The notes under the pieces were generated by a model. It had not been told where the DNA came from and did no database searches. It worked only from the letters and a program-made list of their open reading frames with translations. A DNA stretch of 64,000 nucleotides, from contig JBKBWQ010000001.1 of assembly GCA_046314355.1 (NCBI GenBank), positions 1,408,001 to 1,472,000 of the forward strand, given 5' to 3'. The stretch comes from Candidatus Altimarinota bacterium. GTDB lineage: Bacteria; Patescibacteriota; Gracilibacteria; 1-14-2-50-48-13. A program made the position numbers and the translations under genes. This document shows positions 1 to 30,500 of this stretch, in pieces. Each line of letters opens with the position of its first letter. Position 1 is the first letter of the stretch.

Positions 1-35
1 TATTGTTCCTTAACAAATCGAAGGAGGAAAAACAA

Positions 36-773
36 ATGTCTACTATTACATTGCATTCACTCACAAACATCCCTCTTGTAAAAAAGGGTGATAGTATTGC
101 ACAATTAATCATTGATAGCACCGTAAAAGATGGCGTTACTTTGGAAAATGGCGATATTATTGTTATTGCTCAGAAAGTTATTTCAAAAGCAGAAGGTGCA
201 ACCGTGAAATTATCAGATGTTCAAGTTTCAGAAGAAGCTAGAAAACTTGCAGAACAAACAGGTCGCGATGCACGTCTTTGTCAGCTATATCTTGATGAAG
301 CATCTGAAGTTATTGCTGTAAAAGGACGAATGGTTATTACTAGACATAAATTAGGTTATGTTGGTTCAAGTTCAGGTATCGATCGTTCTAATATGGCTCC
401 ACACTCAGAAGAAATTGTAGTTTTGCTTCCAAAAGATCCAGATAAAAGTGCTGCAAATATACGTGATGAGATCAAAAATCTCACAGGAATAACTGTCAGT
501 ATTATTATTAATGATTCTTGTGGTAGAGATCATCGCGATGGTTCAGTTGGTACAGCTATTGGAGTTGGAGGTATTAAAGCCTTACGTATTGATGAAAAGT
601 TAGATTTGTTTGGTAATCCATCTAATAGTAGAATTGCAGTTGCAGATGAAGTAGCAGCAGCAGCATCACTATTAATGGGGCAAGCAGATGAAGGAGTACC
701 GGCAGTAGTAGTAAAAGGAGTTGCTTACACATCATCCGAACAAGCTACTATTCAAGAATTTATTCACAAATAG
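36..773 (+). CDS. cofE: Coenzyme F420-0:gamma-glutamyl ligase family (CofE-like) amide ligase
   Basis: IPLVKKGD, GDIIVIAQKVISKAEG, GIDRSN, LLPKDPD, DEVAAAASLLMGQADEGVPAVVVKG motifs; AAGGAGG at 21-27 supports ATG 36. Confidence 0.85.
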   Translation: MSTITLHSLTNIPLVKKGDSIAQLIIDSTVKDGVTLENGDIIVIAQKVISKAEGATVKLSDVQVSEEARKLAEQTGRDARLCQLYLDEASEVIAVKGRMVITRHKLGYVGSSSGIDRSNMAPHSEEIVVLLPKDPDKSAANIRDEIKNLTGITVSIIINDSCGRDHRDGSVGTAIGVGGIKALRIDEKLDLFGNPSNSRIAVADEVAAAASLLMGQADEGVPAVVVKGVAYTSSEQATIQEFIHK

Positions 774-783
774 GAGGTTAAAA

Positions 784-1977
784 ATGGAAGGTTTGATGAT
801 AAGTCATAATTATCAAGATCCAGCATCAGGTGAGTTTGAAGTTGTAGAACGAAAAGGAGTAGGCCATCCTGATTCATTAGCAGATGCATTAGCTAATGAA
901 GTATCTATTGCATACTCAAAGTATTGTTTAGAGAATATTGGTGTTATACCTCATCATAATATAGACAAACTCTATATTGGTGCGGGACATTATAAGAATG
1001 ATTATGGAGTTTGTGAACGTCTTTCCCCTATAATAGTTAGAGTTAATGGTCGTATGTCTTCAGTATTTGGTAATGTCGATTTAGATATTCAACAGCTACA
1101 GTCATCTTCTATTCAAAACTATTTACGGCATGTTATGCCATCTATTACTAGTAATGACCTTATTATTGAAACAAATGCATCACAACACACCAAGGTTCCT
1201 TTTTGGTTTACACCAAGAGACCTAAATGATATACCTGATGCTACTAACCCAAAAGCTAATGATACTTCAGTTTGTATTGGTCATTGGCCACCTACATTGA
1301 CTGAATCATTAGCTTATAGGTTAGAAAGGTATTTTTGGAAAGATGTTTCAGGGTACGCTGTGCCAAGATTTGCTGAAATTGGTCAGGATATTAAGGTAAT
1401 GGTAGTAAGAAATGGAGAACATATAGAGGCAACTTTATGCGTTCCAACTATAAGCTTACATACTTCATCCTATAAAGTATATTCTGAACTAATAAAGCTG
1501 TATGAAGAAAATCTCCAAGGTCTTGCTGATGAATTTTTGGCGAGTTCTGGACTTCAATCATTTGTACGGATAAATCCATATCAAAAGCAATATATGCTTG
1601 GATTAGGGAGCTGTATCGAATGTGGTGAAGAGGGGGTTGTGGGAAGAGGTAATAACATTAATGGTATTATCTCAACTCACAGAATTCATACGCTTGAATC
1701 TTGGGCTGGTAAAAACCCAGTCTATCATACAGGTCGAGTATACGGCTATATAACTGCTAAATTTGCTCGAGCAATCGCAGCAAAATTTTCAGTTAAATGT
1801 ACTGTTATTGCAGTAACTCGTTGTGGTGATTCACTATTCCCACCATACCAACTTAAAGTTTCAACCGATAATATTGTCAATAAGTATGAACTTGAAAACT
1901 TTGTTGAACAATTAATATCCGAAACGGACTATATTCAAGAAATTCTTTCATTTAGACCATGGATTAATGACCTATAG
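784..1977 (+). CDS. Archaeal-type S-adenosylmethionine synthetase (MAT)
   Basis: VERKGVGHPDSLAD, HHNIDK, ANDTS, GQDIKVM, GRGN, AGKNPVYHTG motifs; SD AGGAGGT 772-778 before ATG 784. Confidence 0.85.
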   Translation: MEGLMISHNYQDPASGEFEVVERKGVGHPDSLADALANEVSIAYSKYCLENIGVIPHHNIDKLYIGAGHYKNDYGVCERLSPIIVRVNGRMSSVFGNVDLDIQQLQSSSIQNYLRHVMPSITSNDLIIETNASQHTKVPFWFTPRDLNDIPDATNPKANDTSVCIGHWPPTLTESLAYRLERYFWKDVSGYAVPRFAEIGQDIKVMVVRNGEHIEATLCVPTISLHTSSYKVYSELIKLYEENLQGLADEFLASSGLQSFVRINPYQKQYMLGLGSCIECGEEGVVGRGNNINGIISTHRIHTLESWAGKNPVYHTGRVYGYITAKFARAIAAKFSVKCTVIAVTRCGDSLFPPYQLKVSTDNIVNKYELENFVEQLISETDYIQEILSFRPWINDL

Positions 1978-1986
1978 GAGGTTTTA

Positions 1987-2913
1987 ATGTATAAATATAC
2001 AATATCATTAGATAATGAATCAGTTGGTATAGTATCAGATACAGATTTGATGACATTATTTAATCAATGGTCTGAGCTCTTACACCTTAAAGATGTGGCA
2101 GTTAGTTTAGAAGGTGAGAATGAATTTGTTGTAGAATATAGTAATTCTACTGATAATTACGTCTATTACTCAAATAAATGTGCTCATGTAAGAATTCCAT
2201 TAGCAAAGCTTCAGAGTGGTGAATTATTACTTTATGCAGCATTACCTTTTTTAGAGGTCCTGCAGCAAAGGAGATCAGTCATTACTGTGCATGCTGCTGC
2301 TGTAGAAATTCGAGGAAAGGCAGTTTTATTGTTAGGCAAAGTTGGAGCAGGGAAGACCAGTCTGATAATCTCACTTTGTCAAAACCATCAGGCTCAGCTT
2401 ATTGGTAATGATATTGTTAAGATTGAAATGGCTGAAGAAAAAATTATGGCATGTACAGGGTCTAAGTATTTTTTCTTGAGAGAAGAATCAATTAGAAGAA
2501 ATATCCCATCCCTACTTAGTTTGTTTCCCTATTCAGAGAAAGATTCATGGACTCATAAAATTTATTGTACTCCAAGTGAATTAGGTATTATTATAGGTAA
2601 GGGCTTTGTGCCAATTACGCGTAGTTACCTAGTTCATATTGATGAGACAATGGATAAATTACATTCTGTGAATGCTGATACAATGGATACAAGACTTTAT
2701 TTAAATGAAAATATGTCTCGTTATATTCGTGGTACGGCAATTGCTCTCTTTGAAGAAGGTAGAAAATTCTTAGGTTATGTTCCTTCTTTCGATACACCTG
2801 ACTTCTTTTCAATGAGAGTTAGGGTAACTGAACAGCTTATTTCTATGTCTAAGATTAAATATGTGGCAGGCAATCTTAAAGATACTTGTCAGCATATCAT
2901 TTCTGGAATATAG
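1987..2913 (+). CDS. HPr kinase-like P-loop kinase
   Basis: VHAAAVE..GKAVLLLGKVGAGKTS and LIGND, typical of HprK-related kinases. Confidence 0.7.
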   Translation: MYKYTISLDNESVGIVSDTDLMTLFNQWSELLHLKDVAVSLEGENEFVVEYSNSTDNYVYYSNKCAHVRIPLAKLQSGELLLYAALPFLEVLQQRRSVITVHAAAVEIRGKAVLLLGKVGAGKTSLIISLCQNHQAQLIGNDIVKIEMAEEKIMACTGSKYFFLREESIRRNIPSLLSLFPYSEKDSWTHKIYCTPSELGIIIGKGFVPITRSYLVHIDETMDKLHSVNADTMDTRLYLNENMSRYIRGTAIALFEEGRKFLGYVPSFDTPDFFSMRVRVTEQLISMSKIKYVAGNLKDTCQHIISGI

Positions 2914-2957
2914 ATTTTTGGACAGCTCGATTGAGCTGTCTTTTTTTAACTCAAATT

Positions 2958-3503
2958 ATGTTTACATTTAATAATGCTATTTCGCCAGAGTACAGTTTTG
3001 AAATTGAAAATGCTATTTCATATCTAGTTACTCATTTTAATAAATCGGGTCATAATCCAAAGCCGGTTATATTGCATTCTATTAGAATTGCCATGTTACT
3101 AATGGAGATGGGATATAGTAAAAAGATAATTATTAGCGCAGTACTACATGATATTATCGAGGACACAGATGTAAATAATGAAGATCTTGAAAAGAATTTT
3201 GGACAAGATATTCTTAACCTTGTTTTAGCTGTTAGTTATGATGAGTCAATATCTGATCCAGTAGAACAGTATAAAGATATGTTTAGGAGAGTAATAAAAT
3301 ATGGAAAGGAAGCAGTTGTACTTAAGGCAGTGGATATTGCAGTGAATAGCCTTTATATCCATCTTGTTCCAAGTATAGAAAAGCAAAGAGAATTAATTAA
3401 GAAAGGGACTTATTTTCTTAATTTGACAAAAGAATATGAAGAAGAGCCAGCATGGCAAATGCTAAAGCAGAGAAATCTTGAAGAAATTAAACGATTATCA
3501 TGA
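2958..3503 (+). CDS. HD-domain phosphohydrolase (Mesh1/SpoT-hydrolase-like)
   Basis: PVILHS, AVLHDIIEDT, KAVD; ATG 2958 chosen to avoid overlap with the upstream gene. Confidence 0.7.
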   Translation: MFTFNNAISPEYSFEIENAISYLVTHFNKSGHNPKPVILHSIRIAMLLMEMGYSKKIIISAVLHDIIEDTDVNNEDLEKNFGQDILNLVLAVSYDESISDPVEQYKDMFRRVIKYGKEAVVLKAVDIAVNSLYIHLVPSIEKQRELIKKGTYFLNLTKEYEEEPAWQMLKQRNLEEIKRLS

Positions 3504-4651
3504 AGATTGCAGTTTGTCTTCCAAGCTTAAATGAGGCTGCCAATATTGCTAGTATTACTCATATTGTTGACCAAGGGCTTTCTGAAATAATTTTGAAATA
3601 CCCATATGTTAATGCTGAGATTCTAAATTTTGATAGTAATAGTATAGATCAAACACCTCAGATATTTCAACAAACATACACTCATGCATTAAAACAATCT
3701 TTTATAGTTACAAATGGGTTAGGAAAAGGGAGAAATATCTTAGACTTCTGTGAGTATGTAATAAATAATGATATTGAGTACTGTCTGACTATCGATTCTG
3801 ATATTAAATCAGCTACTCCTGCATGGATAGTATCTTTACTAACACCTTTATTATCAGGCTATGCTGACTATGTTACTCCTGTGTATAAAAGAAGTAGATT
3901 TGAGGGCAGCTCTACTAACCACTTTGCTGTACCATTTATTTTTGCTATCACTGGACAATTAATACGGCAACCTATTGCTGGTGATTTTGGTTTTACTAAA
4001 AAGATAGCAAAAGTCTTTTTGCAAAATAAACTTCTATTTGATCCTATAATTGAACATTATGGTATTGATATTTTTATGTCAATTTCTGCAATAAATGCTA
4101 ATGCACGAATTGAACAAATTAATTTAGACAAAAAAATCCATGCACCAAGTTTTCATAAACTTGAGTATATGTTTCCACAAATTGCTAGTACTGCATTGCT
4201 TTGTAAAAAACAATTCAATAATCCCAAGAGCAAAATTGAGACTACAGAAAGCATAGAAATTAATATACTTGAAAATTTAGAATTTCTTCATAAGGATGAA
4301 GCAAATAAAATGAAAAAAAATGCTCTATCTATATTAAAAGAATTAAAAGATTATAAATGGTGTTCAGCTAATTTAATTGAAAATTATTTGCAAAGTTCCG
4401 CATTGGAAATTCCATCAGAGGTACAAATGTCTACACTATGGATAGATATACTTCAAGAATGGATTATCTATTATCAGGAGGTTTCTGATATTAATTCTAT
4501 ACAGAAAGCAGGAAATGAATTATTACCATTCTTCGTGCTAAGAGCAGTTAATTTTTGGATTTGGTCAGAGAGTGTTAGTATAGTACAAATAGAAAATGCA
4601 ATTCTTGAACAGGCTTATCAATTACGCAATATTCTTATAAATAAATTATGA
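3500..4651 (+). CDS. GT-A glycosyltransferase, glucosyl-3-phosphoglycerate/mannosylglycerate synthase-like
   Basis: LPSLNEA, GLGKG, IDSD, RQPIAGDFG, YGIDIF; ATGA overlap with upstream stop. Confidence 0.7.
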   Translation: MKIAVCLPSLNEAANIASITHIVDQGLSEIILKYPYVNAEILNFDSNSIDQTPQIFQQTYTHALKQSFIVTNGLGKGRNILDFCEYVINNDIEYCLTIDSDIKSATPAWIVSLLTPLLSGYADYVTPVYKRSRFEGSSTNHFAVPFIFAITGQLIRQPIAGDFGFTKKIAKVFLQNKLLFDPIIEHYGIDIFMSISAINANARIEQINLDKKIHAPSFHKLEYMFPQIASTALLCKKQFNNPKSKIETTESIEINILENLEFLHKDEANKMKKNALSILKELKDYKWCSANLIENYLQSSALEIPSEVQMSTLWIDILQEWIIYYQEVSDINSIQKAGNELLPFFVLRAVNFWIWSESVSIVQIENAILEQAYQLRNILINKL

Positions 4652-5493
4652 TTGTCACTGCACTTATTGGATCTCCAGTAGATCATAGTATTTCTCCGCA
4701 ACTATTTAAATTGTATGCAGACGAACATCAACTTGAGTATGCACATACTAAGTTTGATATAAAAGCAGAAGATTTAGAAAAAGTTATTACATCACTTTGT
4801 GCTTTTGGATTTGCTGGTGCAAACATTACGCTTCCTTATAAAACAGATGTAATGCGTTTTTTAGACTACATCTCTCCAGAAGCACGGGCAATTGGTGCTG
4901 TAAATACTATTAAAGTTAATAAAAATAAGCTTGAAGGATATAATACTGATGCTTATGGAGCCATTATGGCAATTGAGAAAGTTGCCTTGAGGAATATAGA
5001 TGCTAGTGACTCAGCTATTGTGCTTGGCACAGGTGGAGCTGCACGTGCAATTACATGGAGCTTACTTCAAAAAGGAGCTAAAGTAACAGTAATATATCGA
5101 GAACCAGAGTCACGACGTACTAATAAAATGAAAGAAGATTTTCATGGTATAGTTAAATTTTTAACTTATAAGGATGTAAATACACATATCTTAGAAAAGA
5201 TCACCTTAGTTTGTAACGCTACCTCTGCTGGCATGTATCCAAATATAAATGGAATGCCGGATACAATGAGAGTACTTGAGTATGTAGATCTACATGACGT
5301 AATAATTTTTGATGCAATATTTAATCCAAAAATAACTAAGTTTCAGGAATGGGCAAAAGAACGAGGCGGTATCTTGGCTTATGGTATTGATATGATGATA
5401 TACCAAGGTATAACTGCATTTGAATATTGGACTAATTATAAAGTTAGTGCTGATACAATAGAAAAGGCTGCTTTTACTTTAATGAAATTATAA
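4648..5493 (+). CDS. aroE: Shikimate dehydrogenase family
   Basis: GSPVDHSISP, GANITLPYK, GAVNT, GYNTD, GTGGAARA, NATSAGM, GIDMMIYQG. Confidence 0.88.
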   Translation: MIVTALIGSPVDHSISPQLFKLYADEHQLEYAHTKFDIKAEDLEKVITSLCAFGFAGANITLPYKTDVMRFLDYISPEARAIGAVNTIKVNKNKLEGYNTDAYGAIMAIEKVALRNIDASDSAIVLGTGGAARAITWSLLQKGAKVTVIYREPESRRTNKMKEDFHGIVKFLTYKDVNTHILEKITLVCNATSAGMYPNINGMPDTMRVLEYVDLHDVIIFDAIFNPKITKFQEWAKERGGILAYGIDMMIYQGITAFEYWTNYKVSADTIEKAAFTLMKL

Positions 5494-5498
5494 TATTT

Positions 5499-7343
5499 AT
5501 GCTTAAAGATATATTACATATAACTTTCAATCTTGATGAGATTGCTGATACTGTTTCTGAAGGAATTAGATTTTTAAAGGAACATGGTCTCCATTCGGCA
5601 GAAATTAGAACTATTGATGGTAGAAACATTGCTAAACTTTCGTTAGAAGAAACACTAAGTTTAAAAAAGATCCTGAGTGAAAATAGTATCAGTGTTGCTG
5701 CTATAGCATCACCACTTTTTAAATGGTATTCTGGAAGTCCTCAGACCGAACAAAAAGTTGATCTTTTTGGAATGAGTCCTTATTTATCAATAGATGAGAA
5801 AAAGGAAATGATTGTAAAGATCATTGAACAGGCGATCATACTTGAAACAAAAAATATTCGTATTTTTTCTGGATTAAAGTCTACTGAGGAATATGAACCT
5901 TTGCCAGAAGAAGAATCAGAATTATTACTTTTTGCATTAAAAATTGCAAAAGAAAAAGATGTAATTTTAATGTTAGAGAATGAACCTGTTTGTTACATTT
6001 CTCGCCTTGACGACTATATAAGTATGTTTACCTCAGGTAAGTATGAAGGACTACAATCATGGTTTGACATAGCAAATATATATCAAGAGGGAGAGCTTAT
6101 CACAGCAGAAGACCTAGAAATTCTCATTCCTTTTGTAAAGTATCTTCATATCAAAGATCCTATTGGGAGTAAGATGCACAAATACGTTCCGCTAGGAAAA
6201 GGTTATATTAACTATAAGAGAATTTTTGATATTTTAGAAAAATTAATTACTGAACCGGTTGCTTTAAGTATAGAAACACATGTAAAAAATGATAAATGGA
6301 ATGCTTCAAGTGAATCATTCTATTATTTAAAGAGATTACTCTCAACCAAACGAACTGCCTATGCTATTGTGGGAGTAGGAAGAATATCGCAGAAACACTT
6401 TACTGCATTAAAATCTAATGATAATTGTACATTAGTAGGTGTTTTCGACATTGATAGAACAAAAGCTCATTCTGCAATGCTAGAATATGACTGCGTAGAT
6501 TACTCTAGTTATGAAGAGTTATTGTTAGATAAACAAGTAGAGGTTATATCAATTTGCTGTCCGCATGATATTCACATACCTTATGCTACTCTTGCATTAA
6601 AAAATAATAAAAAAGTACTTTGTGAAAAACCACTTGCACTTAACTCAAATGAACTTTACAGATTTATTGAAAATACTGATAAGCCAGACAGTACTTATGT
6701 TGTTTTTCAAAATCGCTTTAATCCAGCTATAAAGGATTTTTACGAATTTGAAAAAAATAAACTAGGTACCACTCAGTATATCGCTATGACTCTCAGATGG
6801 TGGAGAGACGAATATTATTACAAAGACTGGCATGGTAGTAAAGAGATTTCAGGAGGTCCACTTATTACTCAAGCTATTCATTCCCTAGAACTGGTAACAC
6901 ATTTAACTAGAGGGGCTGGCATAAAAAAAATTAATGCAATTCAATTAAAAACTCGAGATTATATTACTTTATCAGATATTATTATTGCTACTATAGAATT
7001 TGAAAATGGAGTTATTTGCAATATTGAAGTTTGTCTTGCAACACATAATCAGAATTTAGAATCAAGTATTTTTGTTGTAGGTACGACAGGTTCAATGAAA
7101 ATATCTGGAGTTGCTTTATCTGAGTTTGTATATCCCGAGGTAGAGAAAACACTTAATAATGAATCGACTGAGCATTATTATGGTAATGGTCACATTGCAC
7201 TTTATAGAACACACTCAAACCATTATCTAAAATCTTTTGATCATGATGATAAGTTGCTTACAGCTCCCAAAGACCTTTTAGAAACTTTAAAGTTAATAGA
7301 AGCTATTGAAAATGCATTGTCTACATCTTCCAATATAAAGTAA
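5499..7343 (+). CDS. Fusion of xylose-isomerase-like TIM barrel (sugar phosphate isomerase/epimerase) and Gfo/Idh/MocA oxidoreductase
   Basis: N-half IRIFS, LENE, FDIAN, LHIKD, GKGYINY, SIETH; C-half GVGRIS, CEKP, QNRFNP, GGPLITQAIH. Confidence 0.8.
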   Translation: MLKDILHITFNLDEIADTVSEGIRFLKEHGLHSAEIRTIDGRNIAKLSLEETLSLKKILSENSISVAAIASPLFKWYSGSPQTEQKVDLFGMSPYLSIDEKKEMIVKIIEQAIILETKNIRIFSGLKSTEEYEPLPEEESELLLFALKIAKEKDVILMLENEPVCYISRLDDYISMFTSGKYEGLQSWFDIANIYQEGELITAEDLEILIPFVKYLHIKDPIGSKMHKYVPLGKGYINYKRIFDILEKLITEPVALSIETHVKNDKWNASSESFYYLKRLLSTKRTAYAIVGVGRISQKHFTALKSNDNCTLVGVFDIDRTKAHSAMLEYDCVDYSSYEELLLDKQVEVISICCPHDIHIPYATLALKNNKKVLCEKPLALNSNELYRFIENTDKPDSTYVVFQNRFNPAIKDFYEFEKNKLGTTQYIAMTLRWWRDEYYYKDWHGSKEISGGPLITQAIHSLELVTHLTRGAGIKKINAIQLKTRDYITLSDIIIATIEFENGVICNIEVCLATHNQNLESSIFVVGTTGSMKISGVALSEFVYPEVEKTLNNESTEHYYGNGHIALYRTHSNHYLKSFDHDDKLLTAPKDLLETLKLIEAIENALSTSSNIK

Positions 7344-7678: not shown

Positions 7679-7947
7679 ATGAATTTTTATTATGTGTATG
7701 TGCTCAAAAGTCTAAAAGACAGTAAAAACTATATTGGTTTTACAAATAACTTATTACAAAGATATACAGAGCATGAACAAGGTAGAAATATATCTACAGC
7801 AAAACGTAGACCTCTGGAACTTATTTTTATGAAGCATTTAGAAATAAAGAAGATGCTCTACGTAGAGAAGCTTATTTCAAAACTACAAAAGGAAAAATTA
7901 TGTTGAAGATTATATTGAAGGAAGGCTTTAGTTTTTCGGCTCTGTGA
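7679..7947 (+). pseudogene. Small GIY-YIG nuclease, frameshifted
   Basis: YYVYVLKS..YIGFTNNL..R..EH; one T missing near 7824-7828; other frame continues YEAFRNKEDALRREAYFKTTKGK to TGA 7947. Confidence 0.75.
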
Positions 7948-9897: not shown

Positions 9898-10452
9898 ATG
9901 AGAAAAATAATCGCTGCAATGAATATGACTCTAGATGGGTTCTGCGATCATACGGCAGGGATTGTTGATGATGAGACACATCAGCATTATAATGACCTTT
10001 TGAAGAGTGCAGATACCTTGATATATGGACGGACAACCTATCAGCTTATGGAAAGTTATTGGCCGGAGCTTGTGAAAAACCCATCAGGTAACAAACAGGA
10101 AGATGATTTTGCAGTGCTGATTGATGCTATTCATAAGATTGTATATTCCCGCACAATGAAAGAGGTTGATTGGAAAAATTCTATATTGAAACACGAGATA
10201 ATTAGAAAAGAGATTGTAGATATGAAGCAGCAGGAGGGGAAGAATATTTTAGTGGGAAGTCCAAGTATGATCGTAGCTTTTACTAAGCTAGGCTTGATTG
10301 ATGAATATCAGATTAATGTAAATCCTGTTATTTTGGGTAAAGGATTGGTTTTATTTAAAAATATTGAGAAACAAATTGATCTCACTCTTTTGAAAACTAA
10401 GACATTTAAGGGCGGCGGAGTAGTACTCTATTACAAACCAGTGAAAGAATAA
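9898..10452 (+). CDS. Dihydrofolate reductase-like (RibD C-terminal) protein
   Basis: MTLDGF, GRTTYQ, GLIDEY..VNPVILGKG. Confidence 0.85.
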   Translation: MRKIIAAMNMTLDGFCDHTAGIVDDETHQHYNDLLKSADTLIYGRTTYQLMESYWPELVKNPSGNKQEDDFAVLIDAIHKIVYSRTMKEVDWKNSILKHEIIRKEIVDMKQQEGKNILVGSPSMIVAFTKLGLIDEYQINVNPVILGKGLVLFKNIEKQIDLTLLKTKTFKGGGVVLYYKPVKE

Positions 10453-13907: not shown

Positions 13908-13976
13908 CTACCAATAAAGTGACAAGTAGTTATCTTTTTGTTATAGTAAGAGATCAAATTTCTTATTCAATTGATT

Positions 13977-14585
13977 ATGAGAAAAATAATTGCTCTTGAA
14001 TTTATCTCGCTCGACGGCGTGCTGCAGGCGCCAGGTGGTCCCGAGGAAGATACTTCCGGTGGATTTAAATTTGGAGGATGGACGGTACCTTTTTCTGATG
14101 AAGCTTCAAATAAGATCATGACTGAACAAATGAGTGGAGAGTTTGATCTGCTTTTGGGCAAGAAAACCTTTGATATCTGGGAACCGTACTGGCCGAATCA
14201 GGAGGAAGGTAATCCTGTGATGATAAAGTTTAATAAAGTGCAAAAATATGTGGTCACTCATCATGACTTTACGCCGAAATGGGAGGGGACAACTGTGCTC
14301 AGTGGGGATGATGTGGTAGAGCAAATCAAAAATTTGAAGAAGGAAGATGGTCCTGATTTGCAGATCTATGGAAGTGGAAATCTGGTACAGACTTTACTAA
14401 AGAATGATCTGGTAGATGAACTATGGCTGAAGATTTATCCGGTGCTTTTAGGAGCCGGGAAAAAGTTATTTGCCGAGGGGACTATTCCTGCTTCTTTGAA
14501 ATTGATGGATTCTCAAGTTACTCCGCTTGGAGTGATCTTTGCGAATTATAGGAGAAATGGCGAGGTGAAGACAGGGGAGTTTTGA
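13977..14585 (+). CDS. Dihydrofolate reductase-like (RibD C-terminal) protein
   Basis: SLDGVLQAPGGPEED, GSGNLVQTLL, PVLLGAGKKLF. Confidence 0.88.
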   Translation: MRKIIALEFISLDGVLQAPGGPEEDTSGGFKFGGWTVPFSDEASNKIMTEQMSGEFDLLLGKKTFDIWEPYWPNQEEGNPVMIKFNKVQKYVVTHHDFTPKWEGTTVLSGDDVVEQIKNLKKEDGPDLQIYGSGNLVQTLLKNDLVDELWLKIYPVLLGAGKKLFAEGTIPASLKLMDSQVTPLGVIFANYRRNGEVKTGEF

Positions 14586-27574: not shown

Positions 27575-30500
27575 ATGAAAGTCCTTCTCAGGCTTCAAAC
27601 ACTTTTACTTTCAATGGTACTTATCGGGTGTGTGTCGGGAGTAGTGCCTCCAAGTGCGGAGGCAGCAGATTCTGAGAGCTTTGGGGTGCATCTTTCCCAG
27701 CCGTCATATAAAAATGGTGAGCAGATGGTAGTAAAAGCAGATTTATCTACATATGAACATATAAAGCAGGTCTATGCTGTTATAAAAGAAACTGATGTGA
27801 AATTTCCGCTTTTCTTAGATAAGGATGGGGAATGGAGAGGTACCTGGAGTGTACAGGGGCTAGAAGAATTAAAGTATACACTGTATGTGCATGCTTTTTT
27901 AAGTGACGGTACAGAGGTCCGCTCAAATCCGACTGAGTTCTCAGATCCAGTATTTGGAAATACCAGTCTTGGAAATACTGCATATCCGGAAGGAGGACTT
28001 GCAAAGTTATCTAATACTCTCGTAGAAGGAACTTTAAGCTTCTTTAGAGATACTCAATATGATGCTGATGATGGATTCGCATATACTTCATCTTATGGTC
28101 CAGCTCTTTCAAGAATACTTAAAATACGTACCTCAGATTTCAAGAATGTTGCACAGCTTGATCTGCCTAATCCAGACTGGGCAGGAGATATATTTATTGA
28201 TAAAGATGACGATCGTATTCTAATGATAAATTATGATTCCCCCTCTACTGTAACGAAGGTAAGGCTGTCAGACTTTTCATATCAGGGAACTTTTACGATA
28301 GATCTCAATGGTATATATCCAGGTATAATGAGCTTCGATAAGGAAAATGATATGATGTATATCCCCACAGATGATACGCCGTCAACGGTCTATAAGGTGG
28401 ATATGAATACAGAATTAGTCCTGACAAGTCTTACGCTTGATGCGGGGGAAGACTATATCTATAACTTTTATATAGATCCTGTCGCTCAGAAGGCTTATGC
28501 CACCACCTATACATCTCCTATCTCACTAGTGAAGATCGATCTTGCGACAATGACTAGAGAAGATGCTCTTGTGCTTTCATCTGACATGAATGATGCATGG
28601 CTTTCAGTACCAGATGATACATTTACGAAAATGTATGTGATTGCAGATACGACTCAGTCTTATATTGCACGTATTGATCTGGCAACCATGACGGAAGAAG
28701 ACGTAGTACCACTGGATGTGACAGATATATATCCAGGTTCAATGATATATAACCCGGATGATGATAAAATATACTTCTCTGTAAGTGACACTAATATTGG
28801 TGGAAGGATAGTAAGAGTTGATGCGGCTACACTTACTCGTGAGGCTGAATCCCAGCTGCTCATAGATGAACAATATATTAAAATTGAGTTCATAGACCCG
28901 GCATCTCAGTATATGTATGTAAGAATCAGTACTGATAAAGGAATCCTGACAAGAGTTGATCTCAATACTTTTACACGCCTGGACTCTATCCAGGTCAATG
29001 GAGACGGAAGCCGAGATCTCTCTGTAGCATCAGTGGCAGATACAGAGAACAGATTTGGATACTATGTGATGGGCAGCACGCCTGGTGCAGTAGTGAAAGT
29101 AAATCTTGATACTCAAAGAGAGCTAGATATCAAATCCTTTGGGACAGGGGAAGCGGGAGCAAAAGCAGTAATTATAGATAAACAGAATCAGTTTTTGTAT
29201 GTCGGTATTAATAGTACAACGGGTGGTATCAATGATAAGATTTTGAAATATAATTTATCCAACTTTACTCTCGCGGGTACTCTGGATCTGGGATCCAACG
29301 CCTATAACCTTATTTCTGCTTCCATTGATGAGGCCAATACACTTGGATATTTCGGTAGCGCTGGAGCACCGGGTAAAGTCCTTAAAGTGCATCTTCCATC
29401 CATGACGCTTGATACGGAGACAACGCTTACTACTTCACAGGACAATCCTACTGCTTCTCTAGTGCTGGGAGGTTATGTGTACTTGACGACTGAGAATTTA
29501 AGTAGAGATATTGCTATGATTGTACGTCTCGATAAAGATACTCTTGCAGTCGATAAAGTTCAGACTGTAAGAGTGTACGGTTATGGAGTAGAGAGTTTTA
29601 AGTCTATTTTCTATGATGCAAAAGTTGATAAAATCTATGCATTGGATTATCAGACACTCTACGTCATCTCGCCTGATAATTTTCAGATAGATAAAGAATA
29701 CGATCTCGTGAGTGCACATGGTGAGAGCAGACATTCTCCATTTTATTACGGCATGCCTGATATACCTACTACAGCGGTATTTGATGCAGAAGGTGGGAAT
29801 ATCTATGTCACATCCTATTATCCAACAGTTGTAGTAAAGATTAAGCCTCGTGAAGGCATCATTGCATGGCTTAAGTCACTTCCGACTGGGACCTTCGATG
29901 AGTACTCGACTAGTGTTCTTTTTGATGATAAGACAGGACAGCTGCTTATTGGTACGATGAATTATCCAAGCCGTATTATTACTTTCCGAGTAAGTCCGGA
30001 AGGGTATATCTCTGGTACAAAGATTACTTTGCCTGAAAATGCAGGAACAGTGGATAAGGTAAAATTCTACTCTCATCAGGTAGCAGGAAATGTGAGACTG
30101 GCACTCTATGATAATGCAAAAAATCTTGTTTGGCAGAGTGCAGATATCACCGTAACAAAAGAAAATGACTGGCAGGAAGTAGATATTTCTACTGGTTCTC
30201 CATCCACACTTGCTAATCTTCCGGCAGGTGAATACTGGGCTGCTTTCCAAACAAATAGCGGAGCAAGTACCATGAGTTTCTCTCAGGGAAACACGGATTC
30301 AGGATTTGAACTTGCATCTGCCTACGGCACGTTCCCAGCTGCGGTGACAGGTGAGACTTTGACTTCCGGAAACTGGTCTATAGCCTTTGTCTATAACACA
30401 GCAACTGCTCCTGCGGGAAATACTAATTATCCAAATGGAAACATGAAGAGAGTTGGAAATATCGACCTACCATCTTGGGGAGATGATGTACTTTCAAGTG

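What the first reader, a model, noticed from the sequence alone, without database searches (positions are those of the whole stretch)
1..7343. Candidate undescribed biosynthetic operon: CofE ligase + archaeal SAM synthetase + HprK-like kinase + HD hydrolase + GT + AroE + TIM/Gfo fusion
Seen: seven co-oriented genes with gaps of 44 nt or less, two of them ATGA-coupled. Known: CofE is a GTP-dependent amide ligase, and AroE, Gfo/Idh/MocA and IolE/AsbF-like TIM barrels process cyclitols or sugars. GpgS-like GTs glycosylate phosphorylated acceptors. No other F420 or aro genes lie in the window, and I do not recognise this combination as a described pathway. Inference: a dedicated pathway makes a glycosylated, aminoacylated cyclitol/sugar or nucleotide-derived compound using kinase/phosphatase steps and its own SAM supply. 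That would be striking in a biosynthetically reduced CPR-like genome. The operon probably extends upstream of base 1.
Basis: partly seen in the sequence, partly recalled or inferred. Interest (0 to 1): 0.85.

Follow-up and report, generated by a model that had tools for sequence, protein, structure and literature searches.

The report
Conserved mobile glycoside-pathway gene cluster in CPR
Seven tightly packed genes in a tiny-genome bacterium form a real gene cluster, conserved in related bacteria and probably horizontally acquired, that most likely builds an unknown sugar-linked, glutamate-capped small molecule and carries the cell's only detected enzyme for making S-adenosylmethionine.

Summary
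Seven + strand genes lie at 36-7343 with gaps of 10, 9, 44, -4, -4 and 5 nt, and every domain call is confirmed.

The cluster is conserved. The same gene order recurs in relatives' genomes and metagenome contigs. The archaeal-type MAT and the HprK/PEPCK-fold kinase are adjacent in 20 of 20 related loci.

It is not F420 or shikimate metabolism. The genome shows no CofC, CofD, CofG, AroA, AroB, AroC, AroK or HPr.

- The cluster starts at CofE. Upstream lie a divergent GT2 and a tRNA-Gln.
- A covarying terminator hairpin after the kinase, conserved in relatives, splits it into two units: CofE-MAT-kinase and HD-GT-AroE-TIM/Gfo.

Low GC (lowest 0.7% of windows), patchy distribution (10 of 401 phylum genomes) and cluster proteins more alike than SerRS point to horizontal transfer.

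Best reading, inferred: a cytoplasmic kinase, then glycosyltransferase, then phosphatase route to a glycosylated hydroxy-acid. CofE glutamylates it, AroE and TIM/Gfo tailor a ring, and the genome's only detected MAT supplies SAM. The product is unknown. I found no description in print.

The parts
36..773 (+). CofE-family GTP/ATP-dependent gamma-glutamyl (amide) ligase, 245 aa; first gene of unit A
   Evidence: PF01996 215.5 bits; TIGR01916 225.6 bits (cut-off 180.65). It is 74-80% identical in syntenic loci, but only 26-37% identical to the CofE-like genes found in other contexts in the phylum.
784..1977 (+). Archaeal-type methionine adenosyltransferase (MAT), 397 aa; the only MAT detected in the genome
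   Evidence: PF01941 227 bits; NF003362 344.5 bits, below the cut-off of 481. PDB archaeal MATs match at E 5e-46. The motifs GHPD, HHN(I/V)D, ANDTS, GQDIK and GxEG-VGRGN are kept (residue roles from PMC3853416). No PF02773 MetK in the genome. 397-aa homologues cover 100% of the query.
1987..2913 (+). P-loop kinase of the HprK/P-PEPCK fold (ScmC-like family), 308 aa; always adjacent to the MAT
   Evidence: PF07475 26.7 bits, below the cut-off. AF2 model pLDDT 93.5. Foldseek puts PEPCKs first (E 1e-9) and VIA gives HprK/P Z 12.4 and PEPCK Z 11.8. Invariant residues include G117, G120, G122, K123, T124 and D142. Family size: 208 representatives at E<=1e-30. No HPr in the genome.
2920..2947 (+). 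Intrinsic-terminator-like hairpin (9-bp stem, GATT loop) plus T-run, between the kinase stop and the HD start; splits the cluster into two units
   Evidence: Found by the scan and read directly. A hairpin is present in 9 of 9 loci folded. On 8 aligned loci, 96.3% of 80 cells pair, 7 of 10 pairs carry compensatory changes, 0 of 500 shuffles reach this, and slid controls pair at 29-52%.
2958..3503 (+). HD_4 (RelA/SpoT-hydrolase-type) phosphohydrolase, 181 aa; first gene of unit B
   Evidence: PF13328 41.4 bits (cut-off 27.2); TIGR00691 60.7 bits over the hydrolase region. Variant clusters carry a HAD-IA phosphatase in this slot.
3500..4651 (+). GT-A glycosyltransferase of the GpgS / mannosylglycerate-synthase-like group, 383 aa
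   Evidence: PF00535 26.6 bits; NF010496 GpgS 54 bits, below 262. Atlas look-alikes carry MGS_GT, MGS_C or a GpgS family name, scores 0.97-0.99. No PDB sequence match at E<=0.01. ATGA overlap with HD.
4648..5493 (+). AroE-family NAD(P)-dependent shikimate/quinate-type dehydrogenase, 281 aa; an orphan with no other aro genes in the genome
   Evidence: TIGR00507 208.7 bits (cut-off 200.2); PF08501 88 bits. ATGA overlap with the GT. No AroA, AroB, AroC or AroK found.
5499..7343 (+). Fusion protein, 614 aa: xylose-isomerase-like TIM barrel (5499-6353) plus Gfo/Idh/MocA oxidoreductase (6354-7343)
   Evidence: PF01261 60.7 bits; PF01408 81 bits. Gfo half: IolG 103 bits, UDP-GlcNAc 3-dehydrogenase 73.8 bits; PDB 3q2i and 3q2k at E 1e-27, also DgpA and WbpB. 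The TIM model (pLDDT 86.5) matches Art22, AsbF, UlaE, IolI, AtHYD and YcjR about equally, E 1e-12 to 1e-10. L020 has the two halves as separate genes.
7679..7906 (+). Small GIY-YIG nuclease-domain gene at the far end of the low-GC stretch; a possible mobility remnant, not part of the pathway
   Evidence: PF01541 40.6 bits. GC returns to about 0.39-0.41 from 8001 on.

Best explanation
This is a horizontally mobile accessory gene cluster of CPR/Patescibacteria-type bacteria. It consists of two co-oriented transcription units separated by a conserved terminator hairpin. Unit A is CofE-type ligase, archaeal-type MAT and an HprK/PEPCK-fold kinase. Unit B is HD phosphohydrolase, GpgS/MGS-like glycosyltransferase, AroE-type dehydrogenase and a TIM-barrel/Gfo fusion. 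All eight proteins (including the divergent GT2) lack membrane segments, so the chemistry is cytoplasmic.

Most likely mechanism (inferred, not shown), which follows the logic of glucosylglycerate, mannosylglycerate, mycothiol and bacillithiol synthesis:
1. The dedicated kinase phosphorylates a carboxylated hydroxy compound. This would be a glycerate-, malate- or shikimate/quinate-like acid that the cell does not otherwise have in phosphorylated form.
2. The GpgS/MGS-like GT puts a sugar on it.
3. The HD phosphohydrolase removes the phosphate. In variant clusters a HAD enzyme takes this place.
4. The CofE-type ligase caps the free carboxylate with one or more glutamates, as CofE does on the lactyl carboxylate of F420-0.
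5. The Gfo domain oxidises a ring hydroxyl. The TIM barrel isomerises, epimerises or dehydrates the keto intermediate. AroE reduces a ring ketone. Together they tailor the sugar or carbocyclic acid.
6. The MAT is a working SAM synthetase. It supplies SAM to the pathway (methyltransferases and a SAM decarboxylase sit in sister clusters) and, in these MetK-less genomes, to the whole cell.

The end product would be a small anionic glycoside: a solute, cofactor-like molecule or glycan primer.
For: SHOWN
- Gene content and spacing.
- Synteny. All eight genes, including the divergent GT2, are in the same order in G092 at 47-74% identity. G173 has the same start, then the contig ends. Of 10 close metagenome loci, 4 carry the complete seven genes in order (L038, L040, L041, L043). 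L039 and L045 run in order to the contig end. L046 carries a GT28-like gene instead of AroE. L040 and L041 give identical values and may be one organism.
- MAT is adjacent to the kinase in 10 of 10 genome loci and 10 of 10 close metagenome loci.
- The slots are kept while the families change: HD becomes HAD-IA, and the GpgS-like GT becomes a GT4 whose best models are MshA (115 bits) and BshA (110 bits), both below their cut-offs.
- SAM-using genes lie beside sister clusters: FkbM methyltransferase (L041, L043), sugar C-methyltransferase plus SAM decarboxylase (TIGR03330 76.2 bits against 75.65) in L018, and a methyltransferase in L016.
- The MAT keeps the catalytic and methionine-binding motifs (PMC3853416 passages).
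- Bacterial MetK is found in 0 of 10 cluster-bearing CPR genomes, against 58 of 151 in the phylum sample.
- G401 and G033 hold a second, ordinary MAT as well, so the cluster copy travels with the pathway.
- GT look-alikes are of MGS/GpgS type.
- Gfo plus TIM is a known working pair in the families matched: IolG, glycoside 3-dehydrogenases, DgpA, YcjR, AtHYD, IolI.
- No segment reaches KD19 of 1.6 in seven proteins; HD has one borderline window.
- The terminator hairpin is conserved and covaries.
- Signs of transfer: GC 0.328, the lowest 0.7% of 7.3-kb windows; a tRNA-Gln at the edge; 10 of 401 genomes; SerRS is 46% identical to G092 while the cluster proteins are 47-74%.

INFERRED: the order of steps, the acceptor, glutamate as the added residue, and the role of SAM.
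Against: - No substrate or product is known for any of the seven proteins.
- The window's own cluster holds no methyltransferase or other recognisable SAM user. The strict coupling of MAT and kinase is therefore not explained by 'SAM supply'.
- GpgS-type enzymes use 3-phosphoglycerate, a glycolytic intermediate that needs no dedicated kinase.
- The phosphohydrolases found in this slot are HD_4, nucleotidase-like HAD-IA, and a NUDIX protein near L016. These are families that typically act on nucleotides, which fits a nucleotide-like intermediate better.
- The HprK family's known members phosphorylate proteins or peptides (recalled).
- AroE keeps a full AroE signature (above the TIGR00507 cut-off), which argues for a shikimate/quinate-type substrate rather than a keto-sugar.
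- The TIM fold search does not separate dehydratase, epimerase and isomerase.
- Neighbouring GT2, GT4, GT28 and FkbM genes would also fit a glycan pathway.
- CofE and AroE are missing from some variants, so they are not core.
Confidence: 0.4

Rival explanations
1. The core makes a new SAM-derived nucleoside. The MAT makes SAM (or a close analogue). The coupled kinase phosphorylates its ribose. The GT glycosylates it. The nucleotide-type phosphohydrolase removes the phosphate. CofE adds glutamate to the methionine carboxylate. The result is a glycosylated, glutamylated sulfonium nucleoside used as a cofactor or donor.
For: - MAT and kinase are adjacent in 20 of 20 related loci and are interleaved with the GT and phosphatase genes.
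- This is the only reading that places all four core enzymes on one line.
- The phosphatase slot is filled by HD_4 (RelA/SpoT-hydrolase type, acting on ribose 3'-pyrophosphates; recalled), by HAD-IA whose best models are nucleotidases, and, near L016, by a NUDIX gene.
- The residue matching TkMAT Asp283, which touches the ribose hydroxyls and the methionine amino group (PMC3853416), is Glu in all CofE/GpgS-type clusters.
Against: - No precedent is known to me.
- GpgS/MGS-like GTs are known for hydroxy-acid acceptors, not ribose (recalled).
- The methionine-carboxylate contacts of the MAT are conserved, so nothing points to an unusual MAT product.
- It leaves AroE and TIM/Gfo unexplained.
Confidence: 0.13
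2. The cluster tailors a nucleotide-sugar or primes a cell-surface or storage glycan. An example would be a glycerate-primed, methylated oligosaccharide like mycobacterial MGLP. The neighbouring GT2, GT4, GT28 and FkbM genes would extend and methylate it, with the MAT feeding the methylations.
For: - The divergent GT2 is EpsD-like (91 bits, below the cut-off) in the window, L013, L015 and L042. An FkbM methyltransferase sits at the same place in L041 and L043.
- GT4 and GT28-like genes occur in variants.
- The Gfo half is nearest to sugar-nucleotide/glycoside 3-dehydrogenases: WbpB, UDP-GlcNAc 3-dehydrogenase, DgpA.
- GpgS starts MGLP synthesis in mycobacteria (PMC3240985 and PMC2581804; search listing and abstract starts only).
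Against: - There is no flippase, polymerase, lipid-carrier transferase or transporter in the island.
- There are no membrane segments in any of the eight proteins.
- The island is only about 9 kb and is not part of a larger glycan locus.
- This reading explains neither CofE nor the kinase.
Confidence: 0.2
3. MAT plus kinase is a self-contained SAM-supply module. The HprK-like protein would be a regulatory kinase/phosphorylase acting on the MAT, as HprK/P acts on HPr. The module merely rides next to unrelated sugar genes.
For: - This is the only MAT in G000, and no MetK is found in any of the 10 CPR carriers.
- The kinase's C-terminal domain matches HprK/P best (Z 12.4).
- A terminator closes unit A right after the kinase.
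Against: - MAT and kinase are interleaved with HAD and GT genes in L017, L019 and L021, and with the GT and CofE in L016 and L018.
- A GT is present in every locus that extends far enough.
- G401 and G033 already have another MAT.
- The whole model aligns to PEPCK, a small-molecule kinase, over 264 residues.
Confidence: 0.1
4. It is a catabolic or salvage route. AroE plus the TIM barrel would act as a quinate/shikimate dehydrogenase and dehydroshikimate dehydratase (QsuD/QsuB- or AsbF-like). Alternatively Gfo plus TIM would act as an oxidative glycoside-cleaving pair. Either would use host- or environment-derived compounds.
For: - AsbF is among the top fold matches of the TIM domain (E 1.1e-12).
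- DgpA, DgpB-C, AtHYD, levoglucosan dehydrogenase and BT_2158/2159 models are matched.
- AroE is an orphan with an intact signature.
Against: - No transporter and no downstream ring-cleavage genes are present.
- A ligase, a synthase-type GT, a kinase/phosphatase pair and a MAT are biosynthetic, not catabolic.
- AroE and TIM/Gfo are the dispensable parts of the cluster.
Confidence: 0.07
5. It is ordinary F420 tailing and shikimate-pathway metabolism, with the partner genes lying elsewhere in the genome.
For: CofE and AroE both score above their NCBIfam equivalog cut-offs.
Against: No CofD, CofC or CofG (best CofG hit 18.8 bits against 213), and no chorismate synthase, DHQ synthase or shikimate kinase. 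The single EPSP-family hit is MurA. The genome is 98.3% complete.
Confidence: 0.02

Closest known systems
Two-step glucosylglycerate / mannosylglycerate synthesis (GpgS or MpgS plus a phosphatase; single-step MGS)
   Same: The GT-A glycosyltransferase is of the GpgS/MGS-like group and sits next to a phosphohydrolase gene. The expected product is an anionic glycoside of a hydroxy-acid. The soluble, cytoplasmic character matches.
   Different: - The GT scores far below the GpgS cut-off (54 against 262 bits) and has no PDB sequence match.
- The phosphatase is HD_4 or HAD, not the known GpgP types.
- The cluster adds a dedicated kinase, a CofE ligase, a MAT and redox enzymes that those pathways do not have.
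Mycothiol / bacillithiol synthesis (MshA or BshA GT4 acting on inositol phosphate or malate, then dephosphorylation and amide ligation of an amino acid)
   Same: The logic matches: glycosylation of a phosphorylated or carboxylated acceptor, phosphatase, then an amino-acid ligase. In the variant clusters the GT4's best models are MshA and BshA. A sulfur-amino-acid enzyme (the MAT) is in the cluster.
   Different: - There is no deacetylase and no CysRS-like or BshC-like ligase.
- The ligase here is CofE-type.
- The GT4 scores lie below the cut-offs (115 against 462; 110 against 274).
- No thiol-forming step is evident.
CofE (F420-0:L-glutamate ligase) of coenzyme F420 synthesis
   Same: Family member above the equivalog cut-off (TIGR01916 225.6 against 180.65). 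It presumably forms an amide between a carboxylate next to an O-substituted carbon and glutamate.
   Different: The genome has no CofC, CofD or CofG, so F420-0 cannot be the substrate. This CofE forms a subfamily apart from the CofE-like genes spread through the phylum (26-37% identity).
Archaeal methionine adenosyltransferase (e.g. T. kodakarensis, M. jannaschii, S. solfataricus MAT)
   Same: PF01941 member. E 5e-46 to solved archaeal MATs. The catalytic His, the HHN carboxylate contacts, ANDTS, the ribose Asp and the stacking Tyr are kept.
   Different: - It lies below all NCBIfam MAT equivalog cut-offs (best 344.5 against 481).
- The gating-loop region is rebuilt (WF-PR-D-IP motif).
- The Asp283 equivalent is Glu.
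- It is always paired with an HprK/PEPCK-fold kinase, and it is found in bacteria.
HPr kinase/phosphorylase and PEP carboxykinase (P-loop, PEPCK-like fold); ScmC (PF27840) family
   Same: Same fold (Z 12.4 and 11.8; Foldseek E 1e-9) with a Walker A loop and an Asp after strand 2. Precomputed Pfam tags PF07475 and PF27840 appear on relatives. The Atlas names PF27840 as ScmC.
   Different: - It scores below the PF07475 and TIGR00679 cut-offs.
- There is no HPr in the genome.
- At 308 aa it has a PEPCK-like N-domain rather than the HprK N-domain.
- The substrate is unknown.
Gfo/Idh/MocA dehydrogenase plus xylose-isomerase-like TIM-barrel pairs (IolG/IolE, YcjS/YcjR, DgpA/DgpBC, levoglucosan LgdA/LgdB); AroE-family plus TIM pairs of quinate/shikimate use (QsuD/QsuB, recalled)
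   Same: Both domains fall in these families. The shared chemistry would be oxidation of a ring hydroxyl, then isomerisation, epimerisation or elimination at the keto intermediate.
   Different: - Here the two are fused (separate genes in L020).
- They are set in a biosynthetic cluster.
- They are joined by an AroE-type reductase.
- No family cut-off is reached (IolG 103 against 355), and the fold search does not pick one subfamily.

Membership tests
Coenzyme F420 biosynthesis (CofE step) | Protein belongs to the CofE family above the curated cut-off | tested here: met
   TIGR01916 225.6 bits against 180.65; PF01996 215.5 bits.
Coenzyme F420 biosynthesis (CofE step) | The genome makes the substrate F420-0 (CofC/FbiD, CofD/FbiA, FO synthase CofG/H) | tested here: not met
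   PF01983 gave 0 hits and PF01933 gave 0 hits. The best TIGR03550 hit is 18.8 bits against 213.35. The genome is 98.3% complete. CofH was not searched separately.
Shikimate pathway (AroE) | AroE-family protein above the curated cut-off | tested here: met
   TIGR00507 208.7 bits against 200.2; the other AroE equivalog models fall below their cut-offs.
Shikimate pathway (AroE) | The neighbouring pathway steps are present in the genome (AroB, AroK, AroA, AroC) | tested here: not met
   PF01761, PF01202 and PF01264 each gave 0 hits. The one PF00275 hit is MurA (TIGR01072 459.6 bits; aroA 116.6 against 287). The dehydroquinases were not searched.
Archaeal-type methionine adenosyltransferase | PF01941 membership and similarity to solved archaeal MATs | tested here: met
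   PF01941 227.1 bits against 27; 7p82 at E 5.1e-46.
Archaeal-type methionine adenosyltransferase | Curated equivalog score (NCBIfam MAT models) | tested here: not met
   The best is NF003362 at 344.5 bits against 481; the others score 173-201 against 435-577.
Archaeal-type methionine adenosyltransferase | Catalytic and substrate-binding residues named for TkMAT (His33, His62/Asn64, Asn161, Asp201, Tyr271, Asp283, Asp144/Leu145) | tested here: inconclusive
   GHPD, HHNID, ANDTS, GQDIK and the Tyr are kept. The Asp283 position is Glu. The gating loop is rebuilt, with a possible D-L at RDL. This rests on an alignment with canonical-type CPR MATs as stand-ins, not on a structure.
HPr kinase/phosphorylase | Family score above the curated cut-off | tested here: not met
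   PF07475 26.7 bits against 33.3; TIGR00679 31.1 against 240.
HPr kinase/phosphorylase | Fold of the catalytic domain with a P-loop | tested here: met
   VIA Z 12.4 (rmsd 2.6, 130 aligned) to 1knx; the Walker A residues are invariant.
HPr kinase/phosphorylase | The substrate protein HPr is encoded in the genome | tested here: not met
   PF00381 gave 0 hits in G000.
Glucosyl-3-phosphoglycerate synthase / mannosylglycerate synthase group | Curated family score | tested here: not met
   NF010496 54 bits against 262. PF21969 and PF21967 gave no match in the Pfam scan at E<=0.01. The only link is through Atlas look-alike clusters that carry them.
Glucosyl-3-phosphoglycerate synthase / mannosylglycerate synthase group | Acceptor is D-glycerate or 3-phosphoglycerate | not testable with these tools
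   This needs an enzyme assay or a liganded structure.
RelA/SpoT-type (HD_4) hydrolase | HD_4 domain above the cut-off | tested here: met
   PF13328 41.4 bits against 27.2; TIGR00691 60.7 bits over positions 17-131 of the model. The (p)ppGpp substrate was not tested.
Single operon (one transcript) | No terminator between the genes | tested here: not met
   A conserved, covarying hairpin plus T-run lies between genes 3 and 4. Read-through cannot be judged without RNA data.

The most novel reading that the evidence does not exclude
The strictly coupled pair of MAT and HprK/PEPCK-fold kinase, with its GT and nucleotide-type phosphohydrolase, makes a previously unseen SAM-derived metabolite. This would be a ribose-phosphorylated, then glycosylated (and in this cluster glutamylated) sulfonium nucleoside. 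It would serve CPR bacteria as a private cofactor or group donor.
Probability: 0.12. Interest if true: 0.9.

Novelty: new variant of a known kind. Interest (0 to 1): 0.62.

Why it matters
CPR/Patescibacteria are thought to make almost nothing themselves. This cluster is a conserved, transferable set of seven biosynthetic enzymes, so it is a rare candidate for a metabolite these cells do make.

- It brings the only SAM synthetase detected in ten MetK-less genomes. Gaining the island may therefore decide whether such a cell can make SAM or must take it from a host.
- It defines a family of HprK/PEPCK-fold kinases that always travel with one MAT subfamily. There are 208 representatives at E<=1e-30. 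Current knowledge of either family does not explain this pairing.
- It shows CofE- and AroE-family enzymes working outside F420 and aromatic amino-acid synthesis.
- The cluster is small enough (7.3 kb) to express in a laboratory host, which makes the question directly testable.

Tried and rejected
1. Ordinary F420 or shikimate metabolism: rejected by whole-genome family searches.

2. True HPr kinase: rejected. There is no HPr and the scores lie below the cut-offs.

3. Upstream extension of the operon: rejected.

4. Binding of MAT to the kinase: complex prediction gave 'no answer' with a score of 0.00. This counts neither for nor against.

5. Fused forms of the kinase (Rosetta-stone clue): none found among proteins of 600-2000 aa. 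The tool itself calls this weak evidence.

6. Riboswitch or other known RNA around the start of the cluster: only the tRNA matched, searching L001 15000-20000 at E<=1. The rest of the window was not scanned against Rfam.

7. att-type direct repeat of the tRNA-Gln 3' end at the far side of the island: only a 10-mer was found, so there is no support.

8. Expression: no RNA holder is listed. The only run holding the stretch is a DNA run that may be the source sample, labelled hot springs metagenome.

9. Promoter scan: 41 sites against 40.6 expected, uninformative. Terminator scan overall: 5 against 3.1 +/- 1.6. Only the site at 2920-2941 was followed up.

10. TIM-domain subfamily: Foldseek ranks the isomerase Art22, the dehydratase AsbF, the epimerases UlaE and YcjR, IolI and the hydratase AtHYD within two orders of E-value. 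No assignment was possible.

11. First genome-contig scan with the single kinase sequence: no relative. With alignment A1, one locus (L002) was found.

12. A sample of 401 genomes of L002's phylum: only L002's own genome holds a strong match.

13. Literature. Four searches were made: MAT/HPr kinase/CofE, CPR/F420/CofE, CPR with glucosyl- or mannosylglycerate terms, and 2-phospho-L-lactate kinase. None listed a paper describing this gene combination. That is the basis for 'not found in print'. Subscription journals and supplements were not visible.
   - The PDB codes 3Q2I and 3Q2K did not occur in the library. Their identity as WlbA (UDP-GlcNAcA 3-dehydrogenase) is recalled, not checked.
   - The YcjQRS functions are also recalled (one search was a search listing only).

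14. Papers seen.
   - Passages by 'find': PMC3853416, PMC12960796, PMC8498797, PMC12455944.
   - All other papers: search listings and abstract starts only.

As a result the organisms and names behind most kinase relatives, and their wider gene contexts, could not be seen.

Full report
WHAT IS THERE

The window is G000:C1:1408001-1472000 of a 1.69-Mb, 98.3%-complete genome. Its phylum, as sampled, consists of genomes of 0.5-2 Mb. Database records of relatives are named Patescibacteria, Parcubacteria, Kaiserbacteria and Nomurabacteria. So 'CPR-like' is right.

Searches show seven + strand ORFs in 1-7343. Starts were refined from homologues and read in the DNA. The genes are:
- CofE: 36-773
- MAT: 784-1977
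- HprK-like kinase: 1987-2913
- HD: 2958-3503
- GT: 3500-4651
- AroE: 4648-5493
- TIM+Gfo: 5499-7343

The gaps are 10, 9, 44, -4 (ATGA), -4 (ATGA) and 5 nt. CofE (TIGR01916) and AroE (TIGR00507) even exceed their equivalog cut-offs. The MAT, the kinase and the GT fall below theirs.

EDGES

Upstream of CofE lies a divergently transcribed, soluble GT2 (G000:C1:1406934-1407902). A tRNA-Gln lies 95 nt beyond it.

Downstream come a 61-aa ORF and a 75-aa GIY-YIG gene, then ordinary genes.

The seven genes have 32.8% G+C against a genome mean of 38.2% (sd 1.7% for 7.3-kb windows). That is the lowest 0.7% of such windows. No att-like repeat of the tRNA end was found.

INTERNAL STRUCTURE

The 44-nt gap after the kinase holds a 9-bp G+C-rich hairpin followed by seven T.

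The same place in eight syntenic relatives also folds into a G+C-rich hairpin with a T-run. On an alignment of eight loci:
- 96.3% of 80 cells pair.
- 7 of 10 pairs show changes on both sides.
- 0 of 500 shuffles reach this.
- Partners slid by 1-3 columns pair at only 29-52%.

In 7 of the 8, a TATAAT or TATCAT box follows the T-run. The window's own copy lacks it.

The 'operon' is therefore two units:
- Unit A: CofE-MAT-kinase.
- Unit B: HD-GT-AroE-TIM/Gfo.

They are joined by a terminator or attenuator. How much read-through occurs cannot be told without RNA data. None is on hand.

CONSERVATION

The kinase was used as anchor because it is the least common part. It occurs in 10 of 401 sampled genomes of the phylum, G000 included. 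It also occurs in one 'uncultured Clostridium sp.' assembly (L002).

G092 holds all eight genes, the divergent GT2 included, in the same order at 47-74% identity. G173, of the same genus, starts the same way before its contig ends.

A metagenome scan gave 10 close loci with kinases 56-65% identical:
- Seven genes complete and in order: L038, L040, L041, L043.
- In order up to the contig end: L039, L045, L042, L044, L047.
- L046 has a GT28-like gene in place of AroE.
- L040 and L041 give identical figures and may be one organism.
- An eleventh locus, L048, is a weak partial match (34% over 86 residues) with none of the other genes. I do not count it.

More distant genomes keep a core and swap parts:
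- MAT is adjacent to the kinase in 10 of 10 genome loci and 10 of 10 metagenome loci.
- A glycosyltransferase is present wherever the contig reaches. It is GpgS-like in six genome loci. It is a GT4, with best models MshA and BshA, in L017, L019 and L021.
- The phosphohydrolase is HD in the window type and HAD-IA in L017, L019, L020 and L021.
- CofE is present in 6 of 10 genome loci and AroE in 4 of 10.
- TIM and Gfo are separate genes in L020.
- SAM-using genes sit in or beside sister clusters: FkbM methyltransferases (L041, L043), a methyltransferase (L016), and a sugar C-methyltransferase plus a SAM decarboxylase above its equivalog cut-off (L018).

NOT F420, NOT SHIKIMATE, NOT HprK

G000 gave no hit for CofD, CofC, chorismate synthase, DHQ synthase or shikimate kinase. 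The best CofG hit is 18.8 bits against a cut-off of 213. The single EPSP-synthase-family gene is MurA. No HPr is encoded. CofE, AroE and the kinase therefore work on other substrates than their namesakes.

CofE-family genes are common in the phylum, in 100 of 401 genomes. Twelve of those I looked at lie in other contexts. They are only 26-37% identical to the cluster's CofE, apart from two copies in G104 at 44-46%.

THE MAT

This is the only SAM synthetase found in G000.

None of the nine other cluster-bearing CPR genomes has a bacterial MetK. In a sample of the phylum, 58 of 151 do. These genomes are kin, so no test is attached to that contrast.

G033 and the Clostridium-like G401 have an ordinary MAT as well. 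The cluster copy therefore belongs to the cluster.

PF01941 occurs in 21 of 401 genomes. The copies outside kinase clusters are other subfamilies, 27-34% identical, in other contexts.

The residues named for the T. kodakarensis enzyme were read from passages of PMC3853416. Against them, the cluster MATs keep:
- the catalytic His (GHPD);
- the carboxylate contacts (HHN, ANDTS);
- the ribose Asp (GQDIK);
- the stacking Tyr.

The Asp that touches the ribose and the methionine amino group is Glu in the CofE/GpgS-type clusters and Asp in the GT4/HAD type. The gating loop is rebuilt. I read this as a working adenosyltransferase that most likely still uses methionine. That is inference.

THE KINASE

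The kinase has an invariant Walker A (G117, G120, G122, K123, T124) and an invariant D142. The model is confident, with pLDDT 93.5.

Foldseek ranks ATP-dependent PEP carboxykinases first, over the whole length (E 1e-9, TM about 0.5). HprK/P comes next. VIA-align gives HprK/P Z 12.4 over the C-terminal 125-130 residues and PEPCK Z 11.8 over 264 residues.

Relatives carry the tag PF27840, which the Atlas names ScmC. That ScmC comes from the 'SynChlorMet' peptide-maturation cassette is my recollection.

The family has 208 representatives at E<=1e-30 among 1.84 billion. No fused forms were found, which is weak evidence.

THE OTHER ENZYMES

- GT. Its look-alikes carry the mannosylglycerate-synthase domains or the GpgS name. 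The known members glycosylate glycerate-type hydroxy-acids (recalled).
- Gfo half. It is nearest to PDB 3q2i and 3q2k (E 1e-27), DgpA and WbpB. Among NCBIfam models it is nearest to IolG, UDP-GlcNAc 3-dehydrogenase, levoglucosan dehydrogenase and glycoside 3-dehydrogenases.
- TIM model. It matches isomerases, epimerases, a hydratase and the dehydroshikimate dehydratase AsbF about equally.
- None of the eight proteins has a membrane segment.

HORIZONTAL TRANSFER

Several observations point to transfer of the cluster as a unit:
- Low G+C and the tRNA edge.
- The patchy spread, 10 of 401 genomes across at least eight families.
- An IS200-type transposase beside the cluster in L014.
- SerRS of G000 is 46% identical to that of G092 and 45% to that of G145. 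The cluster proteins are 47-74% identical to G092 but only 32-54% to G145. This rests on one marker only.

HOW IT MOST LIKELY WORKS

The recurring set is kinase, glycosyltransferase, phosphohydrolase and MAT, with CofE and redox enzymes as frequent additions. The families in the GT and phosphatase slots change while the slots stay. This is the pattern of pathways in which a phosphorylated acceptor is glycosylated and then dephosphorylated: GpgS/GpgP, MpgS/MpgP, MshA with its phosphatase, and sucrose-phosphate synthase with its phosphatase (established knowledge).

I therefore propose the following steps:
1. The kinase makes the phosphorylated acceptor. The acceptor is a carboxylated hydroxy compound.
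2. The GT glycosylates it.
3. HD (or HAD) removes the phosphate.
4. CofE caps the carboxylate with glutamate.
5. Gfo, TIM and AroE carry out an oxidise, rearrange, reduce sequence on the sugar or on a shikimate/quinate-like ring.
6. The MAT supplies SAM.

All of this is inference from family membership and gene order. I give it 0.4.

The weak point is the unexplained strict pairing of MAT and kinase. A second weak point is that the phosphohydrolase families are ones that usually act on nucleotides. Both facts keep alive the bolder reading that SAM itself is the acceptor (0.12-0.13). Other rivals:
- a glycan-priming or nucleotide-sugar route (0.2);
- a self-contained SAM module with a regulatory kinase (0.1);
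- catabolism (0.07);
- ordinary F420 or shikimate metabolism (0.02).

NOVELTY

Four literature searches, plus passages of a CPR gene-transfer paper and of an F420 review, gave no description of this gene set. Supplements and subscription journals were not visible.

The parts are known enzyme families and the logic has precedents. I therefore rate it a new variant of a known kind, with an open chance of something new in kind.

Noticed in passing
G000:C1:1406766-1407902 (L001:16766-17902), just upstream of the window: A tRNA-Gln(CTG) is followed after 95 nt by a divergent, soluble EpsD-like GT2 that is syntenic with the cluster in G092, G173 and L042. Together with the GIY-YIG gene at window 7679-7906, these bound a low-GC stretch of about 9 kb. 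No att-like repeat was found.
   Followed up: partly
L023, L025-L029 (genomes G160, G061, G351, G187, G179, G261): Other MAT-like subfamilies of the phylum (27-34% identical) lie without the kinase. Their neighbours include a myo-inositol-1-phosphate-synthase-like gene (L023), Peptidase_S51 genes (L023, L026), a HAD (L027), a radical SAM gene (L025) and aminoacyl-tRNA-synthetase genes. In L026, L028 and L029 the HHN methionine-carboxylate motif reads RHM, so these may not be SAM synthetases.
   Followed up: partly
phylum sample; loci L050-L061: CofE-family genes occur in 100 of 401 genomes of this phylum, which is not known for F420. Most are 26-37% identical to the cluster's CofE and sit in a different context that recurs within one family (f2). 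About seven are 395-428-aa open frames, possibly fusions. Their role is unexplained. Folate-type glutamylation is one idea (recalled from Chlamydia work).
   Followed up: partly
L018:5141-10333 (G387): A sister cluster carries a SAM decarboxylase (TIGR03330, just above the cut-off) and a sugar C-methyltransferase between the GpgS-like GT and the MAT. A pyruvate kinase gene lies upstream.
   Followed up: partly
L002:3334-4200 (uncultured Clostridium sp. assembly): The AroE homologue is split into two adjacent frames (183 and 105 aa), either a frameshift or an assembly error. This cluster also holds a metallo-beta-lactamase-fold gene and an APH-type kinase, and its genome has an ordinary MetK too.
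   Followed up: no
L014:6851-7489 (G145): An IS200-like (Y1 transposase) gene lies beside the cluster, and a UbiA-family prenyltransferase gene lies on the other side.
   Followed up: no
L052 (G104:C1:20835-26851): G104's kinase cluster lacks CofE. The genome has two CofE genes of the cluster's subfamily (44-46% identical) about 5 kb apart on another contig. This may be a split version of the pathway.
   Followed up: no
window 27575-34441 (+): A 2288-aa open reading frame, by far the largest in the window. It was not examined.
   Followed up: no
window 9898-10452 and 13971-14585 (+): Two RibD_C-domain (dihydrofolate-reductase-like) genes lie within 4 kb of each other, near a MerR regulator and a MauE/glutaredoxin gene.
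   Followed up: no
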